Assembly: GCF_964213995.1 (NCBI RefSeq)
Contig: NW_027591005.1
Span: 62,001 to 126,000 of the forward strand
Direction of reading: 5' to 3'
Length of the DNA: 64,000 nucleotides
Source of the DNA: Mustelus asterias
Taxonomy: Eukaryota
Shown: positions 12,001 through 53,806 of the stretch, piece after piece
Numbering within the stretch: the first letter of the stretch is position 1
Layout: each line of letters starts with the position of its first letter
The notes under the pieces: generated by a model
What the model was told of the DNA's origin: nothing
What the model saw: the letters and a program-made list of their open reading frames with translations, nothing else
The model's database searches: none
Translations under genes and position numbers: made by a program

Positions 12001-14810
12001 AGACAGAGTGTGTGTGAGCGAGACAGAGTGTGTGAGAGAGAGACAGAGTGTGTGAGAGAGAGACAGAGTGTGTGAGCGACAGAGAGTGTGTGTGAGAGAC
12101 AGAGAGTGTGTGTGAGAGACAGAGAGTGTGTGTGAGAGACAGAGAGTGTGTGTGAGAGACAGAGAGTGTGTGTGAGAGACAGAGAGTGTGTGTGAGAGAC
12201 AGAGAATGTGTGTGAGAGACAGAGAATGTGTGTGAGAGACAGAGAGTGTGTGTGAGAGACAGAGAGTGTGTGAGCGAGACAGAGAGTGTGTGTGAGAGAC
12301 AGAGAGTGTGTGTGAGTGAGACAGAGAGTGTGTGAGCGATAGAGTGTGTGAGCGAGACAGAGAGTGTGTGAGAGACAGAGAGTGTGTGTGTGAGTGAGAC
12401 AGAGAGTGTGTGTGAGCGAGATGGAGAGTGTGTGTGTGAGAGACAGAGTGTGTGTGTGAGAGACAGAGTGTGTGTGTGTGAGAGACAGAGTGTGTGTGTG
12501 AGAGACAGAGTGTGTGTGTGAGAGACAGAGAGTGTGTGTGAGAGACAGAGTGTGTGTGTGAGTGAGACAGAGAGTGTGTGTGATAGAGAGCGTGTGAGCG
12601 AGACAGAGAGTGTGTGTGAGAGACAGAGAGTGTGTGAGCGAGACAGAGAGTGTGTGAGCGAGACCGAGAGTGTGTGTGAGAGAGACAGAGAGTGTGTGTG
12701 AGAGAGACAAAGAGTGTGTGTGAGAGAGACAGAGAGTGTGTGTGAAAGACAGAGTGTGCGCGTGAGCGAGACAGAGAGTGTGTGTGAGAGACAGAGAGTG
12801 TGTGTGAGAGACAGAGAGTGTGTGTGAGAGACAGAGAGTGTGTGTGAGAGACAGAGAGTGTGCGTGAGAGACAGAGAGTGTGCGTGAGAGACAGAGAGTG
12901 TGTGTGAGAGACAGAGAGTGTGTGTGAGAGACAGAGAGTGTGTGTGAGAGACAGAGAGTGTGTGTGAGAGACAGAGAGTGTGTGTGAGAGACAGAGAGTG
13001 CGTGAGCGAGACAGAGAGTGTGTGAGAGAGACAGAGAGTGTGTGTGAGAGACAGAGTGTGTGTGTGAGCGAGACAGAGAGTGTGTGTAAGAGACAGAGAG
13101 TGTGCGTGAGAGACAGAGAGTGTGCGTGAGAGACAGAGAGTGTGTGTGAGAGACAGAGAGCGTGTGTGAGAGACAGAGAGTGCGTGAGCGAGACAGAGAG
13201 TGTGTGTGAGAGACAGAGAGTGTATGAGAGAGACAGAGAGTGTGTGTGAGCGAGACAGAGAGTGTGTGTGAGCGAGACAGAGAGTGTGTGTGAGCGAGAC
13301 AGAGTGTTGTGAGCGAGACAGAGAGTGTGTGTGTGAGAGGCAGAGAGTGTGTGTGAGCGAGACAGAGAGTGTGTGTGAGAGACAGAGAGTGTGTGTGAGA
13401 GACAGAGTGTGTGTGTATGAGTGAGACAGAGAGTGTGTGAGTGATAGAGAGTGTGTGAGCGAGACAGAGAGTGTGTGTGAGAGACAGAGTGTGTGTGTGA
13501 GCGAGACAGAGAGTGTGTGTGAGAGACAGAGAGTGTGTGTGAGAGACAGAGAGTGTGTGTGAGAGACAGAGAGTGTGTGTGAGCGAGACAGAGAGTGTGT
13601 GTGTGAGACAGAGAGAGTGTGTGAGCGAGACAGAGAGTGTGTGTGAGTGAGACAGAGAGTGTGTGAGAGAGACAGAGAGTGTGTGTGTGAGAGACAGAGA
13701 GTGTGTGTGAGAGACAGAGAGTGTGTGTGAGCGAGACAGAGAGTGTGTGTGAGCGAGACAGAGAGTGTGTGTGAGCGAGACAGAGAGTGTGTGTGAGCGA
13801 GACAGAGAGTGTGTGTGTGAGAGACAGAGAGTGTGTGTGAGTGAGACAGAGAGTGTGTGAGAGAGACAGAGAGTGTGTGAGAGAGACAGAGAGTGTGTGA
13901 GCTACACAGAGTGTGTGTGAGAGACAGAGAGTGTGTGTGAGAGACAGAGTGTGTGTGAGAGAGACAGAGAGTGTGAGAGAGACAGAGAGTGTGTGTGAGA
14001 GACAGAGAGTGTGTGTGAGAGACAGAGTGTGTGTGAGCGAGACAGAGTGTGTGTGAGAGACAGAGAGTGTGTGTGAGAGACAGAGAGTGTGTGTGAGAGA
14101 CAGTGTGTGTGTGAGCGAGACAGAGAGTGTGTGAGAGAGACAGAGAGTGTGTGAGAGAGACAGAGTGTGTGTGAGAGACAGAGAGTGTGTGTGAGAGACA
14201 GAGTGTGTGTGAGAGAGACAGAGAGTGTGTGAGAGACAGAGAGTGTGTGTGAGAGACAGAGTGTGTGTGAGCGAGACAGAGTGTGTGTGAGAGACAGAGA
14301 GTGTGTGTGAGCGAGACAGAGTGTGTGTGAGCGAGACAGAGAGTGTGTGTGAGAGACAGAGAGTTTGTGTGAGAGAGACAGAGAGTGTGTGTGAGAGACA
14401 GAGAGTGTGTGTGAGAGACAGAGTGTGTGAGTGAGAGACAGAGAGTGTGTGTGAGAGACAGAGTGTGTGTGAGAGAGGCAGAGAGTGTGTGAGCGAGGCA
14501 GAGAGTGTGTGTGAGAGACAGAGAGTGTGTGTGAGAGGCAGAGAGTGTGTGTGAGTGAGACAGAGAGTGTGTGTGAGAGACAGAGAGTGTGTGTGAGAGA
14601 CAGAGAGTGTGTGAGCGAGACAGAGTGTGTGTGTGAGAGACAGAGAGTGTGTGTGAGAGACAGAGTGTGTGTGTGAGAGGCAGAGAGTGTGTGTGAGTGA
14701 GACAGAGAGTGTGTGTGAGAGACAGAGTGTGTGTGTGAGAGACAGAGAGTGTGTGTGAGAGACAGAGAGAGTGTGTGAGAGACAGAGAGAGTGTGAGTGC
14801 GTGCGAGTGA
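1..14810. repeat. Compound (GA)/(GT) satellite, ~18-22 bp unit GAGACAGAGAGTGTGTGT(GA), with higher-order repeat of 3804 bp
   Basis: Continuous tandem array. Rare variant markers recur 3804 bp apart (gagtctgtgt ~5937/~9741; agacaaagag 8901/12705), and identical ORF translations occur at 6446/10250, 7242/11046 and 8091/11895. Confidence 0.97.
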
Positions 14811-15017
14811 GTGAATGTGAGTGTGTGTGAGAGTGTGTGAGGGAGTATTCATGTGTGTGTTGATGAGAGTGTGTTAAAGTGAGTGTTTATGAGAGTGAGT
14901 GTGTGTGTGAGCAAGTGTGCAAGAGGGAGTGTGTAAAAGTGAGTATGTGTGTAATGTGTGTGAGACTGAGTAAGTGTATAAGAGTGAGTGAGTGCTGGCG
15001 GGAGAGTGCAGGAGTGT

Positions 15018-15314
15018 TAAGTTTCAGTTTATTTACGAGTGTCACAAGTAGGGTTACATTAACACTGCAATGAAGTTACTGTGAGAATCCCCTAGTTGCC
15101 ACACTCCAGTGCCTATTCGGGTTACACTGAGGGAGAATTTAGCACGGCCAATGCACCCTAACCAGCACGTCTTTCAGACTGTGGGAGGAAACCGGAGCAC
15201 CCGGAGGAAACCCACGCAGACACGGGGAGAACGTGCAGACTCCGCACAGACAGTGACCCAAGCCAGGAATCGAACCCGGGTCCCTGGCGCTGTGAGGCAG
15301 CAGTGCTAACCACC
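15018..15314 (-). mobile_element. tRNA-derived shark SINE (HE1/V-SINE-like head, gtgttaatgtaagcc...aataaa-type tail)
   Basis: Reverse complement of the SINE head GGTTAGCACTGCTGCCTCACAGCGCCAGGGACCCGGGTTCGATTCC; near-identical copies at 50489-50790 and 57906-58200. Confidence 0.85.
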
Positions 15315-16322
15315 GGTGATAAGGGGGAGAGTTAACAGAAAGCAGCTGGTGAGAATATACTGGCCGGTTTTAATTTAATCCAAATTAATGAATTAGAAAC
15401 TTTTAACCTAAGGAATTGACATCCGAGGATTTCAGTTTAAAATCCCATTGAAGCTCCCTGTCTCATAATGGGATGTTTTTGCCTGTATTTAGTAATTAGT
15501 GACTTCATATCTCACAGCGAGATAAATAAAACTTTTTTCCAATTGATAGGGACAGCTCAATGGACAAAACTGGTGTGAGAAAGGGGCAAATCCTTTGAAA
15601 ATGGAGGCAGAGAGGAGGCTTTGTTCAACTCCCATTCTTTCCCTGTCTTCAGCAGGCTGGGCAGGAAGTGTGAGCAGAGAGGGGGGGGATAGACAGACAC
15701 ACACTGACACAATCCCCCCAATCCACTCACTCACACATCCCCATTCCCCCTCCACTCGCTGGGTTGTGGGGACCGGCTGCAAGGATTTTCAGGGCTGCTG
15801 TGGGAGGGTCAGGGGGTTTTTGAAATGGACGAACACGACCTACAGGGGAAAAGAAATAAAGTTTGAAACTAAACTAAAGAAACTAAAGACAGGAACTTGC
15901 AGAATCCATTGCCGGCCTGCATTAACATATCAAGAGTCAGTCTGACATTGCCACAAACTCCTCTGGGGTGAGAGGGGGAGGGGGGGTGAATTAGCATCTC
16001 AATAGAGAGACAGACATTGCAGACATGTCAGAGACTCAGGGTGGGGTTTGCATCCAGCACACTCAGGATAAATGTGAATCTGAGAGCCTTCAGTCTCCAC
16101 ACCAATAATCCCCCTGCACTGAAAACATTCCCACTCTGATTCAGTGTGTGTGTCTCAATCTGCTTTTTGACCTGTGCTTTGCTTGTGTGGACATGATGCT
16201 GAATGGACTTGAATGGAAATGCTGGACTCCTCGCTATGATATGTTGTGTATTTTATTGTTAAAATGGCCGTGTCTCTTTTTCTCTCTCTTTTTAACCAAT
16301 TTTTATCTCTTTTTCTCCTGAG

Positions 16323-16466
16323 GAATTTTGAAAACTGGGGATGTGTCGAGGATCCAAAGGACGGGAATGTTTGTGACCAGGATGAGGGAGAGGAGCTTCT
16401 TCCAGAGGGAGGGCTGACTGAGGCCTGTTGCTCAGGCTTCGGCCTGTTGCTCAGGCTTCACCCTGA
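16323..16466 (+). other. Candidate exon (144 nt, phase 2-2) of an unidentified repeated-exon gene
   Basis: Polypyrimidine tract plus ctgag acceptor and GTGAGT donor; open frame NFENWGCVEDPKDGNVCDQDEGEELLPEGGLTEACCSGFGLLLRLHP; homologous to the next three exons. Confidence 0.4.
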
Positions 16467-16587
16467 GTGAGTTGTGTCTGTTTATTAACCTGATCCAGAT
16501 TTAATGTTTCATATCAGAGGGAGCGAGATCTGAATGAGAGTGGAATAGAGAGAGAGAGAGAGAGAAACACACAGGGAGGGAACTGTC

Positions 16588-16934
16588 TCATAGAATCATA
16601 GAAACCCTACAGTACAGAAAGAGGCCATTCGGCCCATCGAGTCTGCACCGACCACAATCTCACCCAGGCCCTACCCCCATATCCCTACATATTTACCCAC
16701 TAATCCCTCTAACCCAGGCATCTCAGGACACTAAGGGCAATGTTTAGCATGGCCAATCAACCTAACCCGCACATCTTTGGACTGTGGGAGGAAACCGGAG
16801 CACCCGGAGGAAACCCATGCAGACACGAGGAGAATGTGCAAACTCCACACAGACAGTGACCCAAGCCGGGAATCGAACGCAGGTCCCTGGAGCTGTGAAG
16901 CAGCAGTGCTAACCACTGTGCTACCGTGCCACCC
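16588..16934 (-). mobile_element. HE1-like SINE (tRNA head, CR1-like ttctatga tail)
   Basis: Full reverse-complement match to the plus-strand copy at 56728-57073. Confidence 0.9.
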
Positions 16935-17203
16935 TAACTCTTTAGTCTCTGCTTTACAACTGACTTGTTGTGTTTGGGTGTTACTGAGAGATTGTGTAAC
17001 TGAGAGGAGATCCTGGGTTTTTGCTGTGCTATTTAATTTAAATATTTTCTTGTATTTTAATTATTTTCTCTCTCTTTCCCCAAGAATTAATATTTATATT
17101 TTACTGAGAGATTGTGTAACTGAGAAGGGGGAATCCTGGCCTCTTGTGCTATTTAATTTAAAGAATTCTTGTATTTTAATTAATTATTTTCTCTTCTCCC
17201 CAG

Positions 17204-17305
17204 GAATTTGAATTTTGAAGACTGCAATGTGACTCGGAATCCTTGGACAAGGGGCTTTTCTCCAGAGGAGGATGGATGGACTGAGGCCTGTTCTATAGGC
17301 CGCAT
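17204..17305 (+). other. Candidate 102-nt symmetric phase-2 exon, copy 1
   Basis: ttctccccag acceptor and gtgagt donor; open frame NLNFEDCNVTRNPWTRGFSPEEDGWTEACSIGR. Confidence 0.5.
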
Positions 17306-18124
17306 GTGAGTTGTTGTCTGTTTATTACCCTGATCCAGGTTTAATTTTAATCTCACTTCCTCGGATGAACCAGTCCTGGTTCGATTGTGGGGTGTGGGGA
17401 GGCTGGAGTTTGAAACCCTGGGGTTAAAATATCCCGGCTTTGCAATTAGTCACAAACAGGTTAACCCTTTGCTGGGTGGCAGAGAGTAAATTAAATATCT
17501 GTAATATGAAGCTGTCTAAAAGTTAGTTTTAAATCCAAGATAACAGGGATGGGAGACAGAGCGCTGTTCCTAATTGTTGAATAAAATTCATAGAGGCCTT
17601 TATAATTCAGTTTTCAGGTTTTCAGACTTTCATTGCGTCCTCTCTGCAGCTTTTCCCCCATTCTGTCTATTTCTCTCTCTCTTTCTCTCTCTCTTTCTCT
17701 CCCTGTCCTTCCTCTATCTGTCTCTCTTTTTTATTCCCTCTCTCTCCCTCTTTTTCGCAGGAAGTCATATTTTGTTGGACAATCTCTCAGTAAAATCTGA
17801 GAAAGGGGAATCCTGGGCTCTTGCGCGATTTAATTTAAACATTTTCTGGTATTTTAATATATTTCTCTCTCTTTTACCCAAGAATTAATATTTAGATTTT
17901 ACTGAGAGATTGTGTAACTGAGAAAGGGGAATCCTGGGCTCTTGTGGATTAAATTTAAACATTTTCTTGTATTTAAATTAATTATATTCTATCTCTTCCC
18001 AAGGAATTCATATTTAGTTGGACAATCTCTCAGTGAAATCTTAGAAGGGGGAATCCTGGGCTCTTGTGCTATTTAATTTAAACATTTTCTTGTATTTTAA
18101 TTAATTATTTTCTCTGTTCCCCAG

Positions 18125-18226
18125 GGATTTGAATTTTGAAGACTGCAATGTGACTCGGAATCCTTGGACAAGGGGCTTTTCTCCAGAGGAGGATGGATGG
18201 ACTGAGGCCTGTTCTATAGGCTGCAA
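18125..18226 (+). other. Candidate 102-nt symmetric phase-2 exon, copy 2
   Basis: ttccccag acceptor and gtgagt donor; open frame DLNFEDCNVTRNPWTRGFSPEEDGWTEACSIGC. Confidence 0.5.
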
Positions 18227-19041
18227 GTGAGTTGTTGTCTCTTTATTATCCTGATCCAGGTTTAATTTTAATCTCACTTTCTTGGACGAACCAGTTCTGG
18301 TTCGATTATGGGGTGTGAGGGGGGCTGGAGTTTGAATCCCTGGGGTTAAAATATCCCGGCTTTGCAATTAGTTACAAACGCATTAACCCTTAGGTGGGTG
18401 GCAAAGAGTAAATTAAATGTCTGTAATATGAAACTGTCTCAATTTGTTTTAAATCCAAGGTAACAGGGATGGGTGACAGACCGCTGCTCCTAATTGTTGA
18501 ATAAAATTCACAGAGGCCTTTGTAATTCAGTTTTCAGAAGTTCAGAATTTCATTTCGTCCTCTCTGCAGCTTTTCCCCCATTCTGTCTATTTCCTCTCTG
18601 CTTTCTCTCTCCATCCCTTTCCTTCCTCTATCTGTCTCTTTTTTTTATTCCCTCTCTCTCTCTCCCTCTTTTTCCCAGGAAATAATATTTTGTTGGACAA
18701 TCTCTCAGTAAAATCTGAGAAGGGGGAATCCTGGGGCTCTTGTGCTATTTAATCTAAATATTTTCTGGTATTTTAATATATTTCTCTCTCTTTTACCCAA
18801 GAACTAATATATAGATTTTACTGAGATTGTGTAACTGAGAAAGGGGAATCCTGGGCTCTTGTGTATTAAATTTAAACATTTTCCTGTATTTAAATTAATT
18901 ATATTCGATCTCTTCCCAAGGAATTAATATTTAGTTGGACAATCTCTCAGTGAAATCTTAGAAGGGGGAATCGTGGGCTCTTGTGCTATTTAATTTAAAC
19001 ATTTTCTTGTATTTTAATTAATTATTTTCTCTTCTCCCCAG

Positions 19042-19143
19042 GAATTTGAATTTTGAAGACTGCAATGTGACTCGGAATCCTTGGACAAGGGGCTTTTCTC
19101 CAGAGGAGGATGGATGGACTGAGGCCTGTTCTATAGGCTGCAA
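19042..19143 (+). other. Candidate 102-nt symmetric phase-2 exon, copy 3
   Basis: ttctccccag acceptor and gtgagt donor; open frame NLNFEDCNVTRNPWTRGFSPEEDGWTEACSIGC. Confidence 0.5.
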
Positions 19144-19582
19144 GTGAGTTGTTGTCTCTTTATTATCCTGATCCAGGTTTAATTTTAATCTCACTTTCTT
19201 GGACGAACCAGTTCTGGTTCGATTGTGGGATGTGGGGGGGGGGCTGGAGTTTGAAACCCTGGGGTTAAAATATCCCGGCTTTGCAATGAGTCACAAACAG
19301 GTTAACCCTTTGCTGGGTGGCAAAGAGTAAATTAAATATCTGTAATATGAAGCTGTCTAAAAGTTTGATGCAAATCCAAAATAACAGGGGTGGGAGAGAG
19401 TGATTTACCCGAATGTTAAATAAGATTCACAGAGGACATTACAATTCAATTTTCTGAAGTTCAGCCTTTACATTTATCTTCCCCTCTGCAGCTTTCTTCC
19501 CCATTCTATTTCTCTCTGCTTTTCTCTCTGTACTTTTCCCCTATCTTCAGCTTTCTCTCCCTTCCTGTTTCTTTCCATTCAT

Positions 19583-19916
19583 CTCTCTCTCTCGAGCAAT
19601 CTTCCATATCTGTCCATCACTCACCAGAATGTCTCTCTCTCTCTCTCTCTCTCGAGCATTCTTCCATATCTGTCTATCACTCTCCAGAATGTCTCTCTCT
19701 CTCTCGAGCATTCTTCCATATCTGTCCATCACTCACCAGAATGTCTCTCTCTCTCGAGCATTCTTCCATATCTGTCTATCACTCTCCAGAATGTCTCTCT
19801 CTCTCTCGAGCATTCTTCCATATCTGTCCATCACTCACCAGAATGTCTCTCTCTCCCTCTCGAGCATTCTTCCATATCTGTCCGTCACTCTCCAGAATGT
19901 CTCTCTCTCTCTCTCT
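19583..19916. repeat. Minisatellite, ~52-60 bp unit CTCGAGCATTCTTCCATATCTGTCYATCACTCWCCAGAATG(TC)n, about 6 copies
   Basis: Direct tandem repeats with a variable (TC)n tract. Confidence 0.9.
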
Positions 19917-21539
19917 GGCTCCATCTTCCTTTGTGTCTCTTTAAACCTTTAATCAACAAAAACTGTGTTATTGTAAACAGGGAGACAGGAATATGGCTTC
20001 GCTCATTTCAATGCAGAGTACATGAGATAGAGGGAAAGAAACAGCTATGGGCAGAGACAACGAGTGAGAAAGAGAGGGGACAGGGACAAGGATCTAGACA
20101 GGAACATCCATCTTTACACTGAGTAAGAGAGACAGGAGCAGAGGGAGAAAAGAGAGGGAGATAGTGAAAGGGAGATGGAGGGAGATGTTGAAATCAATCC
20201 CGGGAGGGCGATTTTAAAAACTGTCCCGAAGGAATCAGCAGCCCCTTCCCAAACTGAAAGAGGGAGATGAGCAGCTCCTGGAGTCTGAGAGGGAGACAGG
20301 GATGGACTGGGGGGTTGTGGATATTTGAAATCAGTTTTAGGAGATTCTGTTTGTAGATTTCTCTCTCTCTGTTCATGCCATTCTGATGTTTCTGAGAGAT
20401 TGTGTAACTGAGAAGGGGGAATCCTGCGTTTCGGTGAGATTTAATTGAAATGGTTTCTTGTATTTAATTAATTTTCTCTCTCTTTTCCCCAAGAATTCAT
20501 ATCTCGTTAGACAATCTCTCAGTAAAATCTGAGAAGGGGAATCCTGGGCTCTTGTGCTATTTAATTTAAATATTTTCTGGTACTTTAATTATTTTCTCTC
20601 TCTTTTCCCCAAGAATTAATATTTAGATTTTACTGAGAGATTGTGTAACTGAGAAGGGGGAATCCTGGGCTCTTGTGCTATTTAATTTACACATTTTACA
20701 CAATAAAATTCACCCAGAGACCTTTACAATTTAGTTTACAGATGTTCAGATTTTCATTTCATCCTCTCCACAGCTTTTCCCCCATTCTGTCTATTTCTCT
20801 CTGCTTTTCTCTCCATTTCCTTCCTCTATCTGCCTCTCTTTATTCTCTCTCTCTCCCTCTTTTTCCCAGGAATTAATATTTAGTTGGACAATCTCTCAGT
20901 AAAACCTGGAAAGGGGCAATCCTGGGATTTTGTGCTGTGTAATTTTCATTCTGGGTGTCCCGGGGGGTTTGATTTCACTGTCTCAGCCCCTCTCTGCCTC
21001 ACTCTCTCTCTGTATAAACTTTTCCCAAATTACAAAACACTCAACACAGCTGACTGCACCTTGTGGGATCTTGCTGGGGATTTTGTTTTAAAAAGGGTGT
21101 TTTCTCAGAGGCAGTTTAAACCTTTCAGGGGACTGTGGGGAAGTCTCCAGACTTGGGACAACACACACACAGGGTTGGGGGCTGGGGGGGGGGAGGTGGG
21201 CAGTCAGGTATACTGGTATTCTGGGAGACTGATATTCCCAACAAGGGCCAGAGGTCTCAGTGCTGAAACATATTAAACTGTTCAAACAGAGGCAGGCAGA
21301 AAGCCATGAGGCTTCAGAGCTCCCTGTAGATGCAAAGGTAACTCCCATTGCCAAAAAGTAGCCACATGTGAAGTGGAAACACCTTCCCTCAGCTTGTTAC
21401 ACACTGACCTTTCCACAACCCCAACATGTTTACAAACACTCGCTGCAGTTTCTGCAAACTTTGTATCAAACTGCCTCCCATTCTGCTCAATACTGACCCC
21501 CTCTCAACCTGGCACTGAACTAGTGTCTGAATTGAGACA

Positions 21540-21900
21540 GAGACACACAGACAGAGTTTTTAAAGTTGAAAGTTTTGAAGTTTATATATTAGTGTCACAA
21601 GTAAAGCTTACATTAGCACTGCAATGACGTTACTGAGAGAGACAGAGAGAGGCAGAGACACACAGACAGAGACATAGATAAAGAGACAGAAAGAGACAGA
21701 GAGATAAAGAGACAGAGAGGATGTTTAAAGTTTTAAAATTTGTTTATTCCTGTCACAAGTAAGGCTCACATTAACGCTGCAGTTACTGAGAGAGACAGAA
21801 AGAGAGAGTTTTTAAAGTTGAAAGATTTAAAGTTTATTTATTAGTGTCACAAGGCTTACATTAACACTGCAATGAAGTTAGTGAGAAAGACAGAGATAGA
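21540..21900 (-). repeat. Three tandem SINE-tail remnants separated by (GA)-rich tracts
   Basis: aaagtttatttattagtgtcacaag...cttacattaacactgcaatgaagtta repeated three times. Confidence 0.7.
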
Positions 21901-24900
21901 GGGAGCATCCAGAGTGGGTTCAGTAACACATTTATTGATCAGATATCTCTCTCTGTGACTCTTTAGTGATGAGATATTCAGCCAGGATGGTTTCACTGAC
22001 CCTCTTCAGCAGGCAGATATTCCCAAATCCAGCCTAGGTCTCAGACACACACACACACACACACCACTCACACATTCCCTCTGCTCTGTCCAAGGGAATA
22101 TTTTAATCCAGGAATTTCTATTTTATATTTACAGGGTGAGGGGTGGGAGAAACTCAACTCAAAAATCCTGCAGTCTCTCCAAGCTGCTTTTAAATTTCAA
22201 TTCAAACCCTGGGCCACATGGGAAGCTGCAGAGATTGGGAAACTTACCAAACCCAGTTTGTGTGTGTGAGTGTCTGCAGTTTTTGTGTCTTTGAACTTGT
22301 GAGGGTGCCAGGGAGAGAATGTCACTGTCTTCACCTCTCTGCCTCTCTGTATAAAAAAATCACCAAATTAAACCACACTCAATCATGCGACCATACACAA
22401 TTAATTATCAAATATCTGTCTCTCTCGCTTTATCTCTCTCTCTCTCCCTGTTCTCTCTCTCCCTGTCTCTTCTCGAGCAGAAACAGGTGGAGACAGAGAG
22501 GCAGGGAGAGAGAGGAAGAGGGAGGGATGGAAACAGCTGGAGTTGTGGGTTAGATGTAGGGGGAGAGACACAGGCTGTTAGAGGGAGGGGGGTTTTCAGT
22601 GAGGGACAGGGTCTCCAGTTTAATTCTGAGGGTCCTGAGAGAGGGATTTCACTGTCTCAGCCCCTCTCTGGCTCCCTCACTCTGTATAAACAATTCCCAA
22701 ATTAAAAAACGCTCAACACAGCTGACTGCGCTTTGTGGGATCTTGCTGTGCACCACAGGGATTTTAGTTTTAAAAAGGGTTACTTTTAAGAGGGAGTTCC
22801 AGCCTTTCTGGAGATTTGGGATGATGCAGACACACACACACACACAGGGTAGTGAGTGGGGAAGGGGGCTCACAGCAGGCAAGAGAGTGGGGGAGAGGAC
22901 TGTGTCCCATCTGATTCAGGTTCACATTGCTGCTGCTGTGGGATCTTGCTGTGCACACACTGGGCCTGTGGCCGTTGCCTGCACTGAAGCAGCGACCAGA
23001 CTTTTTATTTTCAAACAAAATCTGGCTCAGGGACCGCAAAGTGGGTTCAAGGAAAAAGCTTGAAAAGGAGTCGGGTAAATTCAAGCACTTTAATCGCCGA
23101 GGCATCGTCGGCTCTGGAGCAGGTGCTGGGGAATGGGAGGAGGATAGATTGGGATTTGATGGCCAGCATGGAGCTGGTGGGCCGAAGGGCCTGTTTCTGT
23201 GCTGTGTGACTCCAGATTCTTTTCTCTCTCTCTTTTCCCAGGAATTTCTATTTGGATGGGGGGGGGGTGGGTATAGAATTTCCCTGTCTCTGTCTCTCCA
23301 GTGTTCTTACCAATCCCAGCACCCCTCCCCTCTCTCCCCAGACATTCCTGTCTATATTTCATCTTTCAATAAAATGTTTAAGAAAACACCAATGTGAATT
23401 GTTGTCAATTTAATTTGGGAAGAGAGAGAGAGGAGTGGATCCCATTTCCCCCACACTCTCCTGCAGTCCTCACCCACAACATTTATTTAATCTGGCCCTC
23501 ACCAGGTTGTGTGTGTGGGATCTTGCTGTGCACACAGGTGGGTCTGGCTCCCTATTCCTCGCACTGTGACCGTGAGCAGAACTTTAAACAGGAAAGATTG
23601 AGGGGAATGAGAAGGGTTGGGGAGGCGGAGGAGGCAGACAGAGAGATAGAGAAATGGAGGGAGAGCTAAACAGAGAGGGTGTGGGGGGGGGGTTGTGAGA
23701 GGGTCTCAGGAGGGGCAGGGTGAAAGAGACACAGAGTCTGGGGCTGCCCTCCTCCATCGTGGGACTGGCAGTGGGATCTTGCTGTGCAGAATTACCTTCA
23801 TTGTCATTTGAATCATTCATTCATTGACTAAGGGAGGGTGGGTGTGTGATTGTGGGATTATAAATATTGTTACCACGCTGAGGTGATGTTTCCCTCTGCG
23901 CTATTTTGTAACCCCCTAAATGGATACACCTCACCTCGTAATCTTAAGTAAGTGTGTGTGAGACAGGAGGAAGCTATTGGTTTTAGACAGATGTGCAGAA
24001 GGAGGTCATTTGGCCCATCTAGTCTGTACCGACCACAATCCCAACCAGGACCTATTCCCATGACCCCACACTTTTAACCTGCTAATCCCCCTGACACTGG
24101 GGTCAATTTAACACGGCCAATCCACCCAACCCGCACAGCTTTGTGCTGTGGGAGGAATTGGTAAATTAAAGCAGGATCTGACACTCTCTGTATCAGGAAC
24201 AACTAACAGGTCTTTAATTTAGACTGGGTGACAACCTTATTAAAACAATGAACAAACTGAATAAACTCCCCAGTAGAATGCTGTTCCAATTACAAGACTC
24301 ACTCAGGAACAATGAAATAAATCATTACAGAATAGAGTCACCCTCAAATAATATACCAGGCGTCTGTTGGAAGTGTGAACTTCCTTCTGCTGCTTGGGTC
24401 TGGAATACTTTCTGAGTTGGTTTCTGCTTCTATTTAGATGGTGATGTGATGAAGCTGTATATATTACTGCAGGATTCAGTATCAGACTCTCCCTCCTTCA
24501 ATCTAAAGAGGCAGCAAGGTCACTCCCTCCCCGTTATTTCCCCGTCCCGGGTTTAAATACCCAGAATTTCCTCACAGTATTCCTGCAATTTGAGTGGCTT
24601 GAGGCTGTCACCAACGCCCCAATTTGAGTGCAATTGGTTGTGTGTGTTTGAGAGCTTGTTTTAAAATCATTGACCCAATTCAAAGCCTGTTTTGCTCTGC
24701 TGGGACTCTGGCTGCTGCTTTGGACACAACTGTTGTAAAGTTGTCTTCTGCAGTTTAAAATCCCCAGCACAAAGACACAGGCTTTCTAAAGACACAACGC
24801 TGGATGGTTTGTTTTGGTTTTCTCAGCATTTCTTTTCAATATTTACATTTGTCAAACACCACATCTTTAACCTTATATATGCAACTTCATAACAATATTG

Positions 24901-25258
24901 GACAGGGAGAGAGAGATCGGGAGAGACAGAGAGACAGTCACACAAAGAGAGAGGGAGAGAGAGACAGAGAGAGAGAGAAAGTCACATGGAGTAATGAGGA
25001 TGGGGCCTGGATGTGAATGTGGGCGGTGTAGACCTGATGGGCCGAATGGCCTCCTTCTGTACTGTCGGATTCTATGATTCTGTAATGGGGGCTGCGTGCG
25101 GTGTGAGGGGAGGGTGGAAGGGGACAGGGGGTGGGGGCAGCACTGGTTCCCTTTTCCCCCCCCCTCCCTCCTCCCAGGCCCTGTCCGGGAGGTTTCGGGG
25201 CTGGAGGGGATTGTTCTGGTGAACTGGCCGGGGCCTGGGGAACCTGTTCTTTGTCCAG

Positions 25259-25384
25259 GATGTATAATGCAGCCTCTGTGACCAGGCCTCAATCCCAGGC
25301 CTAACCTCAGGAAGGCTTTTGTATTTAGCTTCATTCCCGAACAGTGCCTGTGTTTAAATCGATGGGACTCGACGGTCGAATAAA
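25259..25384 (+). other. Candidate terminal exon A (MYNAASVTRPQSQA-stop, AATAAA at 25379)
   Basis: ttctttgtccag acceptor; phase-2 frame ends GCC TAA at 25304; polyA signal; paralog of 27467-27575. Confidence 0.4.
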
Positions 25385-25405
25385 ACCTGCAGCAGCCACT
25401 TTAAT

Positions 25406-25855
25406 ACAAAGAACAGCACAGCACAGGAACAGGTCCTTTGGCCCTCCAAGCCTGCGCCAATCATGTTTACCTATCGAGACCAATGGCCTGTAACCCTCTA
25501 TACCCCGTTTGTTCATGTGTCTATCCAGATAAATCTTAAATGTGGCTAATGTATCTGCCTCAACCACCTCACTTGGCAGCGCATTCCAGGCCCCCACCAC
25601 CCTCTGTGTAAAAACCTTCCCCCGCACATCTCCACTCAACCTTTCCCCCTTATCTTGAACTTGTTCCCCTTGTAATTATCATTTCTGTCCTGGGAAAAAG
25701 CTCCCAACTGTTCATCCTCGCCACACCCCTCATAATTTTATAAACTTCCAGCTGGTCGTCCCTCAGCCTCTGTCTTTCCAGGGAGAACAATCCCAGTTTA
25801 TTCAATCACTCCTCACAGCCAATACCCTCCATAGCAGGCAACATCCTGGTCAACA
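25406..25855 (-). mobile_element. CR1-type LINE 3' fragment
   Basis: ORF 25331..25639 contains FTQRVVGAWNALP, the typical C-terminus of CR1 ORF2, followed by a CR1 3' tail. Confidence 0.85.
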
Positions 25856-27466
25856 CTTTCATTGGATTTGGGATGTGATTGTGGGTTTTCCTGCTATATC
25901 TCTTTCTCTTCAATCTTTCTCCCGTGATTGAGAGTTATCAGGGAGGGAGAGAGAGAGAAAGGGATGGTAACAGAGAGAGAGAGAGAAAGGGATGGTAACA
26001 GAGAGAGAGAGAGAGAGAGCAAAGGCAGAGGGGCAGGGAGAGGAGAGAGATTGGAGGGGAGTGGGTTAGCGGGTGGGGGTGGGGGAGCCTCCGCTGTGCA
26101 CTCTCAGCCCAGCCAGCTCCCCAGTCTCTGGTTAGGTGCATTAACCCACTCTGGCGCATTAACAGGCGCCAGAGTGTGGCGACTAGGAGAATTTCACAGT
26201 AACTTCATTGCAGTGTTAATGTAAGCCTTAGTTGTGACTAAGAAATAAACTTTACTTTATACTTTACTCTGAGATAAAGACCCTCACTCACAGCCTCCCA
26301 GAAGGTGGGATTTATAAACAGCGACTGTGTAACTGAGGCTGAATCTGTGCTGTTGTGTTTGAAAATATATTTTCCTCATATTTGATGTGTTGTAAAGATA
26401 TTGGAATGTGGCTGCTACCACATTGCAGTGAGAGAGAGATGTAGCTTTGCAGAAGGAGCTTCCCTCCCCATTTCCCCATGGAAATCACTGAGAAATAGCA
26501 GACGTGGCCCACAACACGTCATTATTTGAAACGGTCAGACAGAAACTTATCAGAGAGAGCATTTTAATCCCCATTCATCCCCAGATGGAGAAACAGAGCA
26601 GAGATCAGGACAGATTATCCAGAGTAGGAGAGACCGGGGCAGAGATGGGGTATTGGATATATATATAGATCTGGGGGGAAAGAAAAAGAGACACAGAGGG
26701 GGCTGGACAGGTTCAGAGATAGAGGCAGAGAAACGGGCAGAGAGAAAGAAACAGCGAGAGACAGAGGGAATGGGAGAGAGAGGTGTGACTGTGCTCGGAG
26801 TGGAAGGTTCCCTGTTCATATCGAATGTACAAACAGCCCCAATCCTGGAGTGACTCATTATTTTTATTTGGGGTGGGGGAGAGATGGAGGGTGGGGGGGA
26901 GCGAGGGAGAGAGAGGGAGAAGTGTGGTTCCATCATTGCCCACTCACTTTAGCCCAATCCTCACTTAAAATATCACTTTGTATCTGGCCCTGCTCAGACT
27001 GTGTGTGGGATCTTGCTGTGCCCTCCTCCCCACCCCATATTCTCTGCACTGTGACAGCGCCCCACACTTTAAACATGAAAAGATGGAGAGGAAGGAGGGT
27101 GGGGTAGAGAGAGAGGAACAGAGAATGGGTGGGGAGTGTCGGGGGCTCAGTGGAGGGGGGTAGGGGGATAGAGACAGAGGCTCTGGGGGTGGAGGGGGAG
27201 GTGGGTGTCCTCCTGCAGTGTGGGACTCCCTGTGGATCCTGATTGCAGCATTCCCAGTCTCTCTCTCTCCCTTTCACTGTGAAGCACTCGGGAGGGAGAG
27301 GGAGCTGAAATTCAAATTTCTGAGCCTGGGGGAAAGGCTTGTTCTCAATCCCACAGTCCTGCTTGTGTTTTTAGACAGGGCGCTGGGATTTGTGGGTGTG
27401 GATGGAGAAGATTGTTCTGTTTAACTGGGGGGTGGGAGAGAGGGGGGTTTGTTCTTTCTACCTGAG

Positions 27467-27575
27467 GAATAATGCAGCCTCTGTGACTAGAACGCACTTC
27501 ATGGCCTAAATCTCAGCAGCACTTTTGCATTCGCTTAATTCCCCTTTAAGTGGCTGAATTCAATGGTTCAATAAA
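27467..27575 (+). other. Candidate terminal exon B (NNAASVTRTHFMA-stop, AATAAA at 27570)
   Basis: ttctttctacctgag acceptor; same frame and same GCC TAA ending as exon A; polyA signal. Confidence 0.35.
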
Positions 27576-29539
27576 ATGTGAAGCAGCCACTTCAGGGTGG
27601 GATTGTGGATTTTCCTGCCCGACTTGCCCCCTCTCATTTCCCTTTTGATTGTGAGTTTTATTTTAAACGGTCAGACAGAAACTTAGAGAGAGCATTTCAA
27701 TCCAGATTCACCTCGAGGTAGAGAAACAGAGCAGAGATCAGGACAGGTTATCCAGAGACGGGGTATTGGACAGATATAGATCTGGGGGAAGTGTGTAGGA
27801 GACGGAGAGGGAGAAACAGAGGGGGGGGGGGGGGAGAGGTGACTGACAGAAGTGGGAACTTCATTGGGGCCTCCTGTGTTTATTCACTGGCCTGTCTCTG
27901 GAGTAAAGCCCCCAGAATGGTTTGATGTGTTTAATAAATTCAATATCGGGACAGTCAGGAGGCAGTTCATTGCATTTGAAACGTGTTCCCATTTTGTCAG
28001 GGTTTAATAATGAGGAGGTGAAAATGAATGTTTCCCCCACCCCCCCCCCAGTGAGATTGTGAATTTCAGCAAGTCCTGGGATCTTGCTGTGCCTTTTATT
28101 GTTTTTAATCAGCTTTTGTTTTGTGTTTAATCAAATTTCACTTTATTTTCTCTTTCTCTCTTCCAAGGAGAATTCCTTTGGAAACTTTGGCGATGCAGAG
28201 AGCGAATAGTTTTGCCATGAGGAATCCTCGGACAAGAGCTATAACCAGAGAGAAAAATATTAATAAAAGTCCCCGTGTCTTTGTCGTTCATTTTTATACA
28301 CAGATAGACTGGTGGGGCTTTTACACTGAGGGTTAGTGGTCTGTGTGTCAGGGGGAGGGGGTATTCCCAGTGATCCCTGCTCCAATGTAATCCCACAGAT
28401 TTCAATCCCTCTCCCTGAAGCTCTGTCTGTGCAACTCCCCCATCCTCAGAACTGTTTCTCCACATCTTTCCAATCCCTGTCTCTCCTCATCCTTTATACC
28501 TCAGCCTCTCACAATGGCAGCATCTTTCCCCTGTCTTTCACTCTCTCTGAAACGTTGTCACTCTGTCTTGCCAAAGCCCCACTTACTACTTATCTCCACA
28601 TCTCACTTTGTATCTCAGCCTCTCTGGACATCTCCCTCTCTCTCTGTGGATCATTTTATCTCAATCACAGCAGCCTCCTCTCCGTCTCTCTCTCTATCTC
28701 TGCTCCCCCCTCTGTCTATCTCTGCTCCCTCTCTGTGACTCATTCTGTCTGAAGTACAGCAGCATTCTCTCTCACTCCCCATCTCTATATCTTTTCACAA
28801 TAACTTCATTGCAGTGTTAATGTAAGCCTACTTGTGATTAACAAATAAAATTTTAACTTTAACTCTACTTTTGTCTCTTATCTCTCTCTCTATCGCTTCC
28901 CTCTCTCTATCTGCTTCCCCCTCTCTCTGATCTCTGCTTCCCCCTCTGTGAATCAGTCTGAATTACAGTCGCATCCTCCCCATCTCCATCTCTCTGATCT
29001 CTGCTTCCCCCTCTCTGTGAATCATTCTGTCTGAATTACAGCAGCATTCTCTCTATCTCCATCTCTATATCTCTGCTTCTCTGTCTCTTATATCTCTCTC
29101 TCTGCTCTCTCGTGGGGGACGGGCCAGATCACGGGTTTGCTGTTCACAAGCAGCAAAGGCCCAGGAACGCAGAGGGAGGGAATCAGGGGCAATTCAGAGG
29201 GATCCAGCACTGCTGAAAGGGGGGAGTGTGTAATACAGGGGCTTGTTCAGAGCCGGGGCTATTAGACAGAGAGGGAAGGGGCCGGTGGGGGAGGCTGTTG
29301 TACAAGAGCGGGAAAAATTATAACACAGGCTGACCAGAGTCAGGGGTTATCAGAGAAAGGGGGCAATGGAGGAGGGGAGGGGGAATCAGACAGGGGGTCT
29401 GTTGTACAGGATGGGGGTGGGGGATGTTATAACACAGGCTGCTCAGTGTCAAGGGAATTAGTCATTTGAACGTTAATGTTTAAAATGGGCAGAGTTTCCA
29501 CATCCAACTCCACCAGGAGCTGTTTACAGGGGGGTGGTG

Positions 29540-31050
29540 GACGGGGATGGACGCGCGGAGGGGGGGGGGGGGGGGGGGGTACTAATTAGAAAGGGGGGGA
29601 TCTGTCAGTCCAGAGGCTGTTCACAGGGAGGGAGTGGGAATTTGCCAGGTTGAGAGGGGCGGGGGGGGGAAAGAGGGGAACTTAGAGGGATACGGGGCTC
29701 AGAGGGAAGGATCGGGAGATTTAGAGGGATTGTGAGGAGGGACGACAGATTTGGCTGGAGTGGGGGGGGGATTGAGGAGGATTAAAGGGGGAGAGTGGAG
29801 AGGGATGTAGGGGGAGACTCAGGGATTGTGGTCGGGAATTAGAGGGATTCAGGGGGATTTAAGGGTCTCATGGGGACTTTGGGATTTAGCGGGGCTGAGA
29901 GGGAGGGAATCGGGGGGAATTCGGGAAGAGGGGGCTCAGAGGGGGATTTCTGGGGTTCTGAGGGATACAGGAGGGATTGGGGGGTTTACGGGGATTAAAA
30001 GACATGGTTTGGTGCTCAGACAGATAGAAGGGGTGGGATTGGAGAGGGAGCAGGATTCGGGGGCAGAGGAATGTGGCGAGGGTGGGTGCGATCTCGGGAG
30101 ACATTCAGGGGGGATTCCAGAGGAATCTCAGGGGCTTAGAATCTGGGGAGGGTCTGGATGGGGTAGGGAGTCAGAGGGAGTTAGCAGGGGGGCGAGTCGG
30201 GGTGGAGGGAAAGGGATTGAGGGCGGGGTGGATTTATAGGGATTTGGGAGGGGGGAAATTCAGAGAGGGATTTAGGGTGGGGCCTTGCATCAGGGTTAGA
30301 ATTGGGGGGGTGTCGAGCGATTCGGAGTGGGGGGGTGACTCAGAGGGATTCAGGGGTGGGGAGGACTGAGGAAGGATTGGGTGGCTTGATTTTGGCAGGG
30401 GGGGGGGCAAAGGGAGCCTTTGGGGGGGGGGGGCTGAGGATTTGGGGCAGGAACTTGGAGGATTCAGGGGGCTGAGAGTCAGATTGGCAGTGGGTGTCAG
30501 AGAGATTGAGCGGGGGGAGGGGGTGCTTACAGAGTCGGATTAAAGGAGATCGGGCAGAGGGACAGGGAATCAGGTGGGGGAAAGAGGAGTTTTGGGGGGG
30601 AATTAGTGGAGATTGAGGGCAGCGGGTTGAGAAGGATTGGGAGTGGCTCAGAGGGCTTTGGCGGTGAGTTCCTGAGAGAGAGTGAGTGGGGGGGTGATTA
30701 GAGTGGGATTGGAGAAGATTGGGCAGAGAGGATCGGGGGGAGGGGCCGAGAGAGATTGGGCAGCAGGGAGGGTTAGAGGCGTTGAAGTGGAGGGATTTAG
30801 AGTGGGTTTCTGGAGTGGGGAATTAAGGAGGGGTTTGGGGGGGAGGGGAATTTGGGGGTGAGAGACTGAGGGTGGCGGGTTTAAAAGGATTGGGAGTGGG
30901 TTCAGGAGAAGGGTTCGGGGGGGATTGAGCTGAGAGAGGAATCTGTAGGGCATTGGCAGGAAGGGGAGGGGGGGGGAGATTCAGCAGCGTTTTTGTGTCT
31001 GGTGGGAACAGCTGGAGACGGGAAGCGGGGGGGGGGCGCAAGTCGGGGGG
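29540..31050 (+). repeat. Strand-asymmetric G-rich low-complexity region (degenerate GGGATT / TTAGAGGG motifs)
   Basis: Very high G and low C on the plus strand, with many G4-G20 runs. Confidence 0.75.
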
Positions 31051-31717
31051 GGCGCAATTCGGGGGGGGGCGCAATTCGGGGGGGGGCGCAATTCGGGGGG
31101 GGGCGCAATTCGGGGGGGGCGCAATTCGGGGGGGGCGCAATTCGGGGGGGCCGCAATTCGGGGGGGCCGCAATTCGGGGGGGGCCGCAATTCGGGGGGGG
31201 CCGCAATTCGGGGTGGGGGCAATTCGGGGGGGGGCAATTCGGGGGGGGGCAATTCGGGGGGGGGGCAATTCGGGGGGGGGCAATTCGGGGGGGGGCAATT
31301 CGGGGGGGGGGCAATTCGGGGGGGGGCAATTCGGGGGGGGGCAATTCGGGGGGGGGCAATTCGGGGGGGGGCAATTCGGGGGGGGGCAATTCGGGGGGGG
31401 GCAATTCGGGGGGGGGCAATTCGGGGGGGGGCAATTCGGGGGGGGGCAATTCGGGGGGGGGCAATTCGGGGGGGGGCAATTCGGGGGGGGGCAATTCGGG
31501 GGGGGGCAATTCGGGGGGGGGCAATTCGGGGGGGGGCAATTCGGGGGGGGGCAATTCGGGGGGGGGCAATTCGGGGGGGGGCAATTCGGGGGGGGGCAAT
31601 TCGGGGGGGGGCAATTCGGGGGGGGGCAATTCGGGGGGGGGCAATTCGGGGGGGGGCAATTCGGGGGGGGGCAATTCGGGGGGGGGCAATTCGGGGGGGG
31701 GCAATTCGGGGGGGGGC
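31050..31717 (+). repeat. Tandem repeat (GGGGGGGGGCAATTC)n, 15-bp unit
   Basis: About 26 perfect units from ~31320, preceded by GCGCAATTC/GCCGCAATTC variants; this repeat generates all the Pro/Gly ORFs at 30.8-31.9 kb. Confidence 0.97.
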
Positions 31718-31940
31718 AAGTCTCAATAAGGTCACATCGCATGCTTCTAAACTCCACTAAGTAGAGGCCCAACATACTCAAACTCTCCGAAAAAACATAT
31801 CCATACCTGGGATCAAAGGAGTGGCCTTCCCTGAACTGCCTCCAATGCCAGTATAGGTTTCCTAATGTAAGGGGACAGTGTTCCAGATGTGGTCTAAATC
31901 GTACCTTGTATAGTTTTAGCAAGATTATTAGTTTTAACAA
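31718..31940 (-). mobile_element. Degenerate CR1 LINE fragment
   Basis: Translation LYKVRFRPHLEHC...LGLYLVEFRSMRCDLIET matches CR1 ORF2 motifs seen elsewhere in the window. Confidence 0.7.
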
Positions 31941-32273
31941 AGACAAGCTTGAAAATGAAATATATGTAGATAATTACTCAAATCAGTGGGCATTTGACTC
32001 AACCTGCTAAATGGGCATTTTCTATCCTATTAGTAACCCAATTTCAGTTCGATGTCACATCACTGATGCCTAATGTTTCAACTGGTGTTGATGACACGGC
32101 TTAATGAACAGTGAGCTGAACTCGATACTCGGTGCCTAATAGCTTAATTGATTGGTGCAATGGCTTCTCCTTCATTCCAAGCACTGCCTTGGCTCTTTAC
32201 CGGCCTTTCACCCGACACCATTCAGCAGAAATCTGTATCTAATGGGAGGAAATGAAGGTGGACTCGCACTTAC

Positions 32274-32336
32274 TTGGCACAACCTGCAGTCGGGTGCCGC
32301 TGCCGAATATCAGTTTTTCATTATCAGCAATATACA
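32274..32336 (-). CDS. TRDJ: TCR-type J segment (J3): YIADNEKLIFGSGTRLQVVP
   Basis: FGxG motif; phase-1 GTAAGT donor at 32273-32268; preceded by a 12-RSS. Confidence 0.9.
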
Positions 32337-32364
32337 CACAGTGACTATTGCCCAAGCAGAAAGC
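32337..32364 (-). other. 12-spacer RSS of J3
   Basis: Plus strand reads CACAGTG, 12 nt (actattgcccaa), GCAGAAAGC. Confidence 0.88.
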
Positions 32365-33194: not shown

Positions 33195-33258
33195 TTGGCT
33201 CCACGCTCAATTTGGTTCCACCACCGCATATTAATGGTCTGTAAGAAGCACGAGCGTA
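33195..33258 (-). CDS. TRDJ: TCR-type J segment (J2) with non-canonical CGGG motif: YARASYRPLICGGGTKLSVEP
   Basis: xGxGT-L-VEP pattern; GTGAGT donor at 33194-33189; open frame; preceded by a degenerate 12-RSS. Confidence 0.82.
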
Positions 33259-34595: not shown

Positions 34596-34655
34596 TGGGT
34601 TCCACAATCAGCCTGGTCCCGTTGCCAAAGATGAGCTTAGCCTTTTCATATGTTG
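34596..34655 (-). CDS. TRDJ: TCR-delta-type J segment (J1): TYEKAKLIFGNGTRLIVEP
   Basis: KLIFGxGTRLxVEP closely resembles vertebrate TRDJ (human TRDJ1 is TDKLIFGKGTRVTVEP); GTAAGT donor at 34595-34590. Confidence 0.92.
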
Positions 34656-34865: not shown

Positions 34866-34904
34866 GGTTATTGTACGGGCGTTAAGGGAGATTCAGCTAC
34901 TGTG
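34866..34904 (-). other. 3' 23-spacer RSS of the D segment
   Basis: Plus strand reads GGTTATTGT, 23 nt, TACTGTG (minus strand CACAGTA-23-ACAATAACC). Confidence 0.92.
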
Positions 34905-34922
34905 GCTCCACCGTATATCCCC
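34905..34922 (-). CDS. TRDD: TCR-delta-type D segment GGGGATATACGGTGGAGC
   Basis: 18 nt between a 12-RSS and a 23-RSS; open in all three frames (GDIRWS / GIYGG / GYTVE); GGGGATA core resembles vertebrate TRDD. Confidence 0.92.
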
Positions 34923-34950
34923 CACAGTGATACATGCCAGCACAAAAACT
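34923..34950 (-). other. 5' 12-spacer RSS of the D segment
   Basis: Plus strand reads CACAGTG, 12 nt (atacatgccagc), ACAAAAACT. Confidence 0.95.
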
Positions 34951-42157: not shown

Positions 42158-42196
42158 GGTTTTTGTACAGGTCTGGGTGTGATCTATATCACTGTG
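42158..42196 (-). other. Consensus 23-spacer RSS of the intact V
   Basis: Minus strand reads CACAGTG, 23 nt, ACAAAAACC (perfect heptamer and nonamer). Confidence 0.97.
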
Positions 42197-42501
42197 CCGT
42201 TGTGCACAGTGATACGTAGAGCTGTCTCCCATTGTTAAAGTCCTAATAGAGAGCACGAATACACTGGTGGAAAGGTACTTGGACGCAGTGATTCGTTCAC
42301 CAAACTCCGGATTGTAATTCTTGCTATTTTCATTGTAGTACCAAAGGAGCCAGCCCGGTCCCTTCCCGGGACTGTGTCGGTACCAAAGCATGGTGTAACT
42401 CCCAAGATCAAATCCACTGGTTTTACAGGTTAGGGTCAGGGTTTGCCCTATTATCCCCGTCTCTGCCTCTGGCTGGGTCAACACCACATCCGACTGGACG
42501 T
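42197..42501 (-). CDS. IGHV: Intact IgM-VH-like V exon upstream of TCR-delta D/J (VH-delta/TAILV-like)
   Basis: VQS-DVVLTQPEAETGIIGQTLTLTCKTSGFDLGSYTMLWYRHSPGKGPGWLLWYYNENSKNYNPEFGERITASKYLSTSVFVLSIRTLTMGDSSTYHCAQR; both Cys and the Trp are present; shark IgM-VH-type FR1; cag acceptor at 42504-42502; no stops. Confidence 0.93.
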
Positions 42502-42619: not shown

Positions 42620-42671
42620 AGGATAAGAAACCAAGAAACAGACTGAGAGATATTGCTAGCGCCATGCTCAT
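42620..42671 (-). CDS. IGHV: Leader exon of the intact V (MSMALAISLSLFLGFLS)
   Basis: Hydrophobic signal peptide; phase-1 GTGAGT donor at 42619; 118-bp intron joins in frame to the V exon. Confidence 0.9.
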
Positions 42672-44354: not shown

Positions 44355-44397
44355 GGGTTTTTTTTTTACAAATCTGGGGCTGACCCGCCTCACTGTG
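44355..44397 (-). other. 23-RSS of the V pseudogene (nonamer decayed to a poly-A run)
   Basis: Minus strand reads CACAGTG, 23 nt, AAAAAAAAAACCC. Confidence 0.75.
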
Positions 44398-53710: not shown

Positions 53711-53806
53711 GTTCAAGGCCGACTTCCGGACTTGATGGCCATGGAAGGTGTGCTCATAACGGGGCCAAACAGCTGGATTATCAAACAGTAAATCCTGCCG
53801 GATCAT

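What the first reader, a model, noticed from the sequence alone, without database searches (positions are those of the whole stretch)
14810..32273. No constant-region exon downstream of the J segments; the island ends abruptly at a G-rich tandem repeat
Seen: 550 bp past J3 a CR1 fragment is fused directly to (G9CAATTC)n. I find no Ig C1-like or V-like exon on the minus strand in the remaining ~32 kb, which holds an opposite-strand exon array and satellite. Inference, three alternatives: (a) an orphon or duplicated V-D-J cassette that can rearrange but has no C, or reaches a distant C; (b) an N-terminal cassette that splices to a distant supporting V, as in NAR-TCR or TCR-mu; (c) a misjoin of the assembly at the repeat.
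Basis: partly seen in the sequence, partly recalled or inferred. Interest (0 to 1): 0.7.

Follow-up and report, generated by a model that had tools for sequence, protein, structure and literature searches.

The report
Truncated shark TCR-delta minicluster copy
This shark T-cell-receptor delta cassette lacks its constant region, while 11 near-identical sister cassettes in the same assembly keep theirs, so it is likely a young broken duplicate, cut at a G-rich repeat that is likely a recurrent breakpoint in this immune-gene region.

Summary
Observation confirmed: no constant exon follows J3 in the window or anywhere on this 131-kb contig. The cassette (IgH-like V, D, three J) is one of 12 near-identical TCR-delta units. 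All 11 sisters run past the same base into sequence that holds a C-delta exon 13-19 kb on; in the closest sister (C173) J4-J6, hinge and transmembrane exons were read too. The window matches C173 over 37 kb with 2 substitutions and 1 indel, but lacks two pieces: a 21.4-kb NAR-TCR cassette upstream and everything after base 31718. Both joints show 2-3 nt microhomology and no RSS. The G-rich array is the edge of a block with 44 exact marker hits; 15 of 43 readable copies are cut there and fused to other DNA. Best reading: a real, young, constant-less pseudocluster (0.7). Misjoin 0.15; somatic molecule 0.1. The NAR-TCR/TCR-mu reading is rejected. Read contigs could not test the joint.

The parts
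42620..42671 (-). Leader exon of the IgH-like V; phase-1 donor, in frame with the V exon
42158..42501 (-). Intact IgH-like V exon (42197-42501) with a perfect 23-spacer RSS; TAILV-like
44359..44704 (-). Second IgH-like V, pseudogene (stops, frameshift), 23-RSS with degenerate nonamer; start approximate
34866..34950 (-). D segment (34905-34922) with 5' 12-RSS and 3' 23-RSS, the TCR-delta layout
34596..34655 (-). J1 (KLIFGNGTRLIVEP); degenerate RSS
33195..33258 (-). J2; Cys in place of Phe in the FGXG motif, degenerate RSS
32274..32364 (-). J3 (KLIFGSGTRLQVVP) with its 12-RSS; last J kept of the six in the sister unit
31718..31720 (.). Joint 2: J3 intron, inside a CR1-type fragment, fused to the G-rich array; 2-nt microhomology, no RSS; J4-J6, C-delta, hinge and TM lost
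31030..31719 (+). G-rich minisatellite, 46 G-runs with 6-nt loops (fits the G-quadruplex motif; folding untested); cut inside its first unit type
14810..31029 (.). Multi-copy non-coding block with AG/GT-flanked plus-strand repeats; no Pfam Ig or other above-cut-off family; nearest copies C1098 and C1007 (98.6% with gaps)
45686..45688 (.). Joint 1: 21.4-kb deletion relative to C173 (NAR V-D-J, supporting V-delta, one more V); 3-nt microhomology, inside a LINE ORF1, no RSS
1..14795 (.). 20-bp GA/GT satellite

Best explanation
The window holds a TCR-delta V-D-J cassette that has no constant region on its contig and is likely a real, young, germline pseudocluster derived from the complete unit on contig C173. 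Shown: it equals C173 apart from two joints and three small differences. Inferred: two breaks were repaired by microhomology end joining or template switching, not by RAG; one dropped the NAR-TCR cassette, the other fused the J3 intron to a G-rich array that is a recurrent breakpoint in this duplicated IgM / TCR-delta / zinc-finger region. Predicted: V, D and J3 can still be cut and joined under the 12/23 rule, but the product would be sterile; at most the intact IgH-like V would serve as a donor to a sister's D-J-C.
For: Sisters: 11 other places match the D-J stretch at 96-100%, C123 in two pieces at 93 and 98%; 11 of 11 stop matching at 31718, go on in homologous DNA (0.08-3.5% mismatch among them) and have a C exon 13.3-18.6 kb on. 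In C173 J4-J6, C1-set exon, hinge and TM are present. Contigs of 4 of 4 read runs bridge the breakpoint into the sister continuation, so the intact form exists in reads. Window vs C173: 36,995 bp, 2 substitutions, 1 homopolymer indel. At both substitutions the window carries the base shared with paralogs and C173 the private one, as expected of a separate lineage rather than of errors in the window's contig. Joint 1 joins two collinear places 21.4 kb apart in one unit, which a random chimeric read would hardly do. Array as hot spot: 15 of 43 block copies with a readable far end (window included) are fused to other DNA, 14 different joints, against 28 with the common flank; one lies on a 202-Mb scaffold; some show microhomology or a short scrambled array-like insert. 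C181 is an independent case: its delta unit is fused to the array 37.7 kb further on and keeps its C.
Against: The joint 30-mer occurs once in the assembly, on an unplaced 131-kb contig. Identity to C173 (0.005%) is far higher than in other close pairs here (0.14-0.5%), which also fits reuse of the same reads. Both substitutions lie in repeats, where paralog reads could pull a consensus to the common base. The only array joint seen twice (C325, C2562) is 100% identical and may be assembly redundancy. Polarity does not fit the worm G4 model: there deletions run 50-300 bp 5' of the G-tract (PMC4654259, passages), while this joint removes DNA 3' of it. The partner block is not on C173 by the exact marker and is not C181's copy, so the event is not a simple short deletion and its geometry is unresolved. 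No rearrangement or expression was tested.
Confidence: 0.7

Rival explanations
1. Assembly artefact: contig C973 stitches C173-type reads to a separate block copy at the G-rich array.
For: Near identity to C173; joint unique in the assembly; small unplaced contig in a heavily duplicated region that also holds fully redundant pairs (two C71 flanks and C479/C1148 100% identical over 1.5 kb).
Against: The joint has only 2 nt of homology, not a shared repeat. A second, collinear microhomology deletion lies 14 kb away. Ancestral bases at both substitutions. Thirteen other distinct array joints, some with end-joining scars. The window's array carries unit variants not seen at that place in its nearest block relatives.
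Confidence: 0.15
2. A real but somatic or mosaic molecule (for example from lymphoid cells) was assembled as its own contig.
For: The assembly holds RAG-type joined versions of sister units: supporting V joined to D on C850, and a D-D-like join on C138; these could be germline-joined or somatic.
Against: Neither joint of the window lies at an RSS. Two private substitutions on the C173 side imply separate descent. A somatic clone would need a high cell fraction to be assembled (inference).
Confidence: 0.1
3. A working N-terminal V-D-J cassette that splices to a distant supporting V or C, as in NAR-TCR or TCR-mu.
For: Leader, V, D and J3 are intact with usable RSS.
Against: No V or C in 93.7 kb downstream. 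The V is IgH-like (51-56% to IgM VH) and not NAR-like (30%). In sisters the same J lead to C-delta with no V between, and the NAR-TCR cassette is the piece this copy lost.
Confidence: 0.03

Closest known systems
Elasmobranch TCR alpha/delta locus in the antigen receptor complex (PMC12227049; parts 1-2 of 8 and term passages read)
   Same: TCR-delta segments, NAR-TCR and IgH-like V lie among IgH miniclusters; a basking-shark gene model has the same order NAR V, supporting V, further V, IgH-like V, J, C-delta.
   Different: The paper describes TCR alpha/delta as a translocon. This assembly has 19 C-delta exons in repeated units, and this copy has none.
[quoted passage not shown]
   Same: IgH-like V with leader and 23-RSS directly upstream of D-delta; 67% to the basking-shark V in the same position.
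   Different: No nurse-shark TAILV sequence could be compared; here the V sits in a multiplied unit and, in this copy, has no C in cis.
NAR-TCR (PMC6795676 and PMC12227049, passages)
   Same: The intact sister unit carries the NAR V-D-J plus supporting V cassette.
   Different: The window's V, D and J are not that cassette; it was deleted at joint 1.
Marsupial TCR-mu tandem clusters (PMC7615758, passages)
   Same: Delta-derived, repeated clusters each with its own C, with partial clusters and zinc-finger genes nearby.
   Different: Marsupial partial clusters lack V or V and D and keep C; this one keeps V-D-J and lacks C. No Vj-type second domain.
G-quadruplex-linked deletions repaired by polymerase theta (PMC4654259, passages)
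   Same: Breakpoint at a G-run array, short microhomology, occasional templated insert. Two block copies (C1866, C181) lack about 260-320 bp on the 5' side of the array, the worm polarity and size.
   Different: The window's joint and most others remove DNA 3' of the retained G-runs and reach kilobases or more.

Membership tests
TCR-delta (TRD) unit | V-23 / 12-D-23 / 12-J signal layout (recalled) | tested here: met
   RSS scan; sequences
TCR-delta (TRD) unit | J with FGXG motif | tested here: met
   J1 and J3 yes; J2 has CGGG
TCR-delta (TRD) unit | C exon 1 with trd signature CLXXXFXP and not tra CLXTD (PMC10322711 methods passage) | tested here: met
   Met by the sister exon (CLASDFSP; 43 of 101 aa to the basking-shark C)
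TCR-delta (TRD) unit | C, hinge and TM exons in cis in this copy | tested here: not met
   Absent from contig C973
TCR-delta (TRD) unit | Canonical trdc-(traj)n-trac position (PMC10322711) | tested here: not met
   No J-type 12-RSS cluster in the 51 kb after C-delta of C173; V genes, zinc-finger and tRNA genes follow. Other sisters were not scanned that far; C-alpha was not located.
NAR-TCR cassette | N-terminal V related to IgNAR | tested here: not met
   30% to the NAR-TCR V, 51-56% to IgM VH
NAR-TCR cassette | Supporting V-delta downstream of the first J | tested here: not met
   None downstream on the contig; the sister's supporting V lies upstream, in the deleted piece
TAILV | IgH-like V resident next to D-delta | tested here: met
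   the tree placing it with IgH V has no starred support
TAILV | Clusters with published nurse-shark TAILV sequences | not testable with these tools
   Source paper not held; no named TAILV among homolog hits
TAILV | Expressed on C-delta | not tested
   No RNA run was laid
G4/TMEJ deletion of the dog-1 type | 3' joint at the G-tract, loss of 50-300 bp on its 5' side | tested here: not met
   Opposite polarity and far larger at this joint
G4/TMEJ deletion of the dog-1 type | Array forms a G-quadruplex | not testable with these tools
   Motif fits by sequence; the fold tool does not model G4

The most novel reading that the evidence does not exclude
In this shark TCR-delta has left the translocon plan and turns over like antibody miniclusters: whole NAR-TCR / TAILV / D / J / C units are copied and killed, a G-quadruplex-type minisatellite acts as a recurrent breakpoint, and constant-less remnants such as this one stay in use as donors of IgH-like V genes to neighbouring units.
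Probability: 0.25. Interest if true: 0.72.

Novelty: new variant of a known kind. Interest (0 to 1): 0.45.

Why it matters
The missing exon itself is an ordinary loss. What it exposes is not: the papers I could read describe shark TCR genes as translocons, yet this assembly has 19 C-delta exons in repeated units that differ by up to 3.5% among the 11 compared, and here one unit is caught just after being broken. If real, it gives a datable birth-and-death event, a PCR-testable breakpoint, and a way to test whether V genes of C-less units rearrange to other units, which bears on how Ig/TCR chimeras and cluster-type loci such as TCR-mu arose. If it is an artefact, it warns that copy counts in this region are inflated.

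Tried and rejected
Reads: no RNA holder listed. In 4 runs of one study (Logan contigs, at most 3 samples) no listed contig bridges joint 2 (900 pieces not shown) or joint 1 (50 not shown). This is uninformative: the same contigs carry T at 31819, where the window and C173 have G and 10 sisters have T, so minority variants are dropped. Simple 38-kb deletion from a C181-type unit: rejected, as the window keeps 30712-31030, which C181 lacks, and its block is closer to C1098/C1007. Recent head-to-tail duplication in front of C173: not supported, the contig's far end is only 98.96% like C173's upstream DNA. RAG deletion: no heptamer at either joint. Long pure run of 33 units at the joint as a sign of remodelling: dropped, intact copies have 27-77. 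A seventh J suggested by an RSS-like site: no FGXG. Duplex folding of the array: uninformative. The V tree had no starred branch. Five block copies were left out of the 43 because the far end could not be read (C172:118k, C1866, C353, C1080) or was not fetched (C462). Papers PMC7039070, PMC7909615, PMC1458790 and PMC3222143 were not held. No supplements were read; table S1 of PMC12227049 may list several C-delta models.

Full report
Setting. The window is G000:C973:62001-126000, on a contig of 130,890 bases in a 3.68-Gb genome. NCBI models of the sister genes are labelled Mustelus asterias, and their contig lengths equal those of G000 contigs, so the genome is taken to be that shark.

The cassette. 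On the minus strand lie a pseudo-V, an intact leader plus IgH-like V with a perfect 23-RSS, a D with 12- and 23-RSS, and three J. J1 and J2 have degenerate signals and J2 has Cys for Phe. The V is 51-56% identical to shark IgM VH, 26-33% to TCR-type V, and 67% to the V that sits before J and C-delta in a basking-shark model. It has 13 close relatives in the genome.

The observation. J3 is followed after 553 bp by the G9CAATTC array. No C, hinge, TM, further J or V lies downstream on the contig, and the controls worked.

What is missing. The D-J stretch has 11 near-identical sisters. All 11 match the window only to base 31718, continue in homologous DNA, and have a C exon 13.3-18.6 kb on (which lists 19 such exons, none on C973). 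In C173 I read J4-J6, a C1-set exon with the trd signature of PMC10322711 (methods passage), a hinge and a TM exon. Contigs from four read runs cross the breakpoint into this continuation.

The parent. The window and the rest of its contig equal C173 over 36,995 bp with 2 substitutions and 1 homopolymer indel. A second joint at 45686-45688 skips 21.4 kb of C173 that holds the NAR V-D-J, the supporting V and one more V. Joint 1 has 3 nt and joint 2 has 2 nt of microhomology; neither is at an RSS. At both substitutions the window has the paralog base and C173 the private one. With the epaulette-shark rate of 7e-10 per base per generation (PMC10587355, abstract), two changes give roughly 4e4 generations, with a range of about 5e3 to 1.4e5 (my arithmetic; a rate borrowed from another species).

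The array. It is the edge of a duplicated block: 44 exact hits of a 32-base marker, almost all on C71 and unplaced contigs. In 28 copies the array runs through further unit types into a common TC-rich flank. In 15, the window included, it is fused to other DNA, giving 14 different joints. Partners include a LINE, a zinc-finger exon, a 69-bp satellite and the 3' flank of another delta unit. Where a parent could be found the joints show short homology or small inserts. In 3 of 23 fetched copies an IgM VH lies about 3 kb beyond the array. The array fits the G-quadruplex motif, but the polarity differs from the worm model (PMC4654259, passages), so G4 causation is a hypothesis.

Real or artefact. 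For real: non-homologous joints, a collinear second deletion, ancestral bases, and a class of similar joints, one on a 202-Mb scaffold. Against: a single occurrence, very high identity to C173, and redundant contigs in the region. The read contigs could not decide. I put a germline copy at 0.7, a misjoin at 0.15 and a somatic molecule at 0.1.

How it would work. Shown: the anatomy and the losses. Inferred: end joining or template switching, with the array as one end. Predicted: RAG can still join V, D and J3, but no delta chain results. The V might join to another unit's D-J, as IgM and IgW V are reported to do with TCR-delta in nurse shark (PMC5931798 and PMC6795676, passages); this is untested and the contig is unplaced.

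Known and new. PMC12227049 (parts 1-2 of 8, term passages) and PMC6795676 (passages) describe shark TCR as translocons linked to IgH miniclusters. Searches listed no paper on multiple C-delta units in a shark or on this species' TCR; four key papers were not held, so this is weak. Marsupial TCR-mu has repeated and partial clusters, but those keep C (PMC7615758, passages). Earlier notes of this scan report the 19 C-delta copies from other windows; I had counted them. Look-ups by the block's sequence, by words and by place found no note on this array or joint.

Verdict. A real absence with a mostly ordinary cause: a broken duplicate. Its value lies in the context, a multiplied TCR-delta unit and a recurrent G-rich breakpoint. 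New variant of a known kind; interest 0.45.

Noticed in passing
L086 (G000:C850, about 35.9-36.3 kb): The supporting V-delta is joined directly to D-delta, both inner RSS gone: a RAG-type coding joint in the assembly, germline or somatic.
   Followed up: partly
L087 (G000:C138, about 217.7 kb): D-delta is preceded by a different upstream sequence, another heptamer and extra bases, like a D-D join.
   Followed up: no
L042 (G000:C123, about 596.0 kb): This sister lacks about 2 kb holding J2 and J3; the joint is not at an RSS.
   Followed up: partly
L070 (G000:C173, about 99.7-100.0 kb): The supporting V-delta is followed by five tandem 61-bp units, each a perfect 23-RSS; three in C71b and at least three in C181.
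   Followed up: no
L089 (G000:C1007, about 2.8-3.6 kb): An IgM VH with a 12-spacer RSS directly after it (V-D joined look) and no leader exon evident in the printed sequence lies about 3 kb beyond the array; the same VH is on C1179 and C1012.
   Followed up: partly
L165 (G000:C1, about 47.567 Mb): A copy of the block edge with only 40 bp of array sits on a 202-Mb scaffold, away from the other copies.
   Followed up: no
L097 (C1866) and L023 (C181, about 268 kb): Losses of about 260-320 bp on the 5' side of the G-rich array, the polarity and size of worm G4 deletions.
   Followed up: partly
window 45686-46900: 5' part of a LINE with a CCHC-knuckle ORF1 (Tx1/L1-like, label recalled); relatives of this LINE also hold the far breakpoints of at least three array joints (C325, C181:143k, C127).
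   Followed up: partly
window 53806-56727: 52-bp tandem array of 56 copies, shared with C173.
   Followed up: no
L132-L134 (G000:C96): A divergent unit (C 81% aa) with the supporting V directly before the J and no IgH-like V found by my pattern in 30 kb.
   Followed up: no
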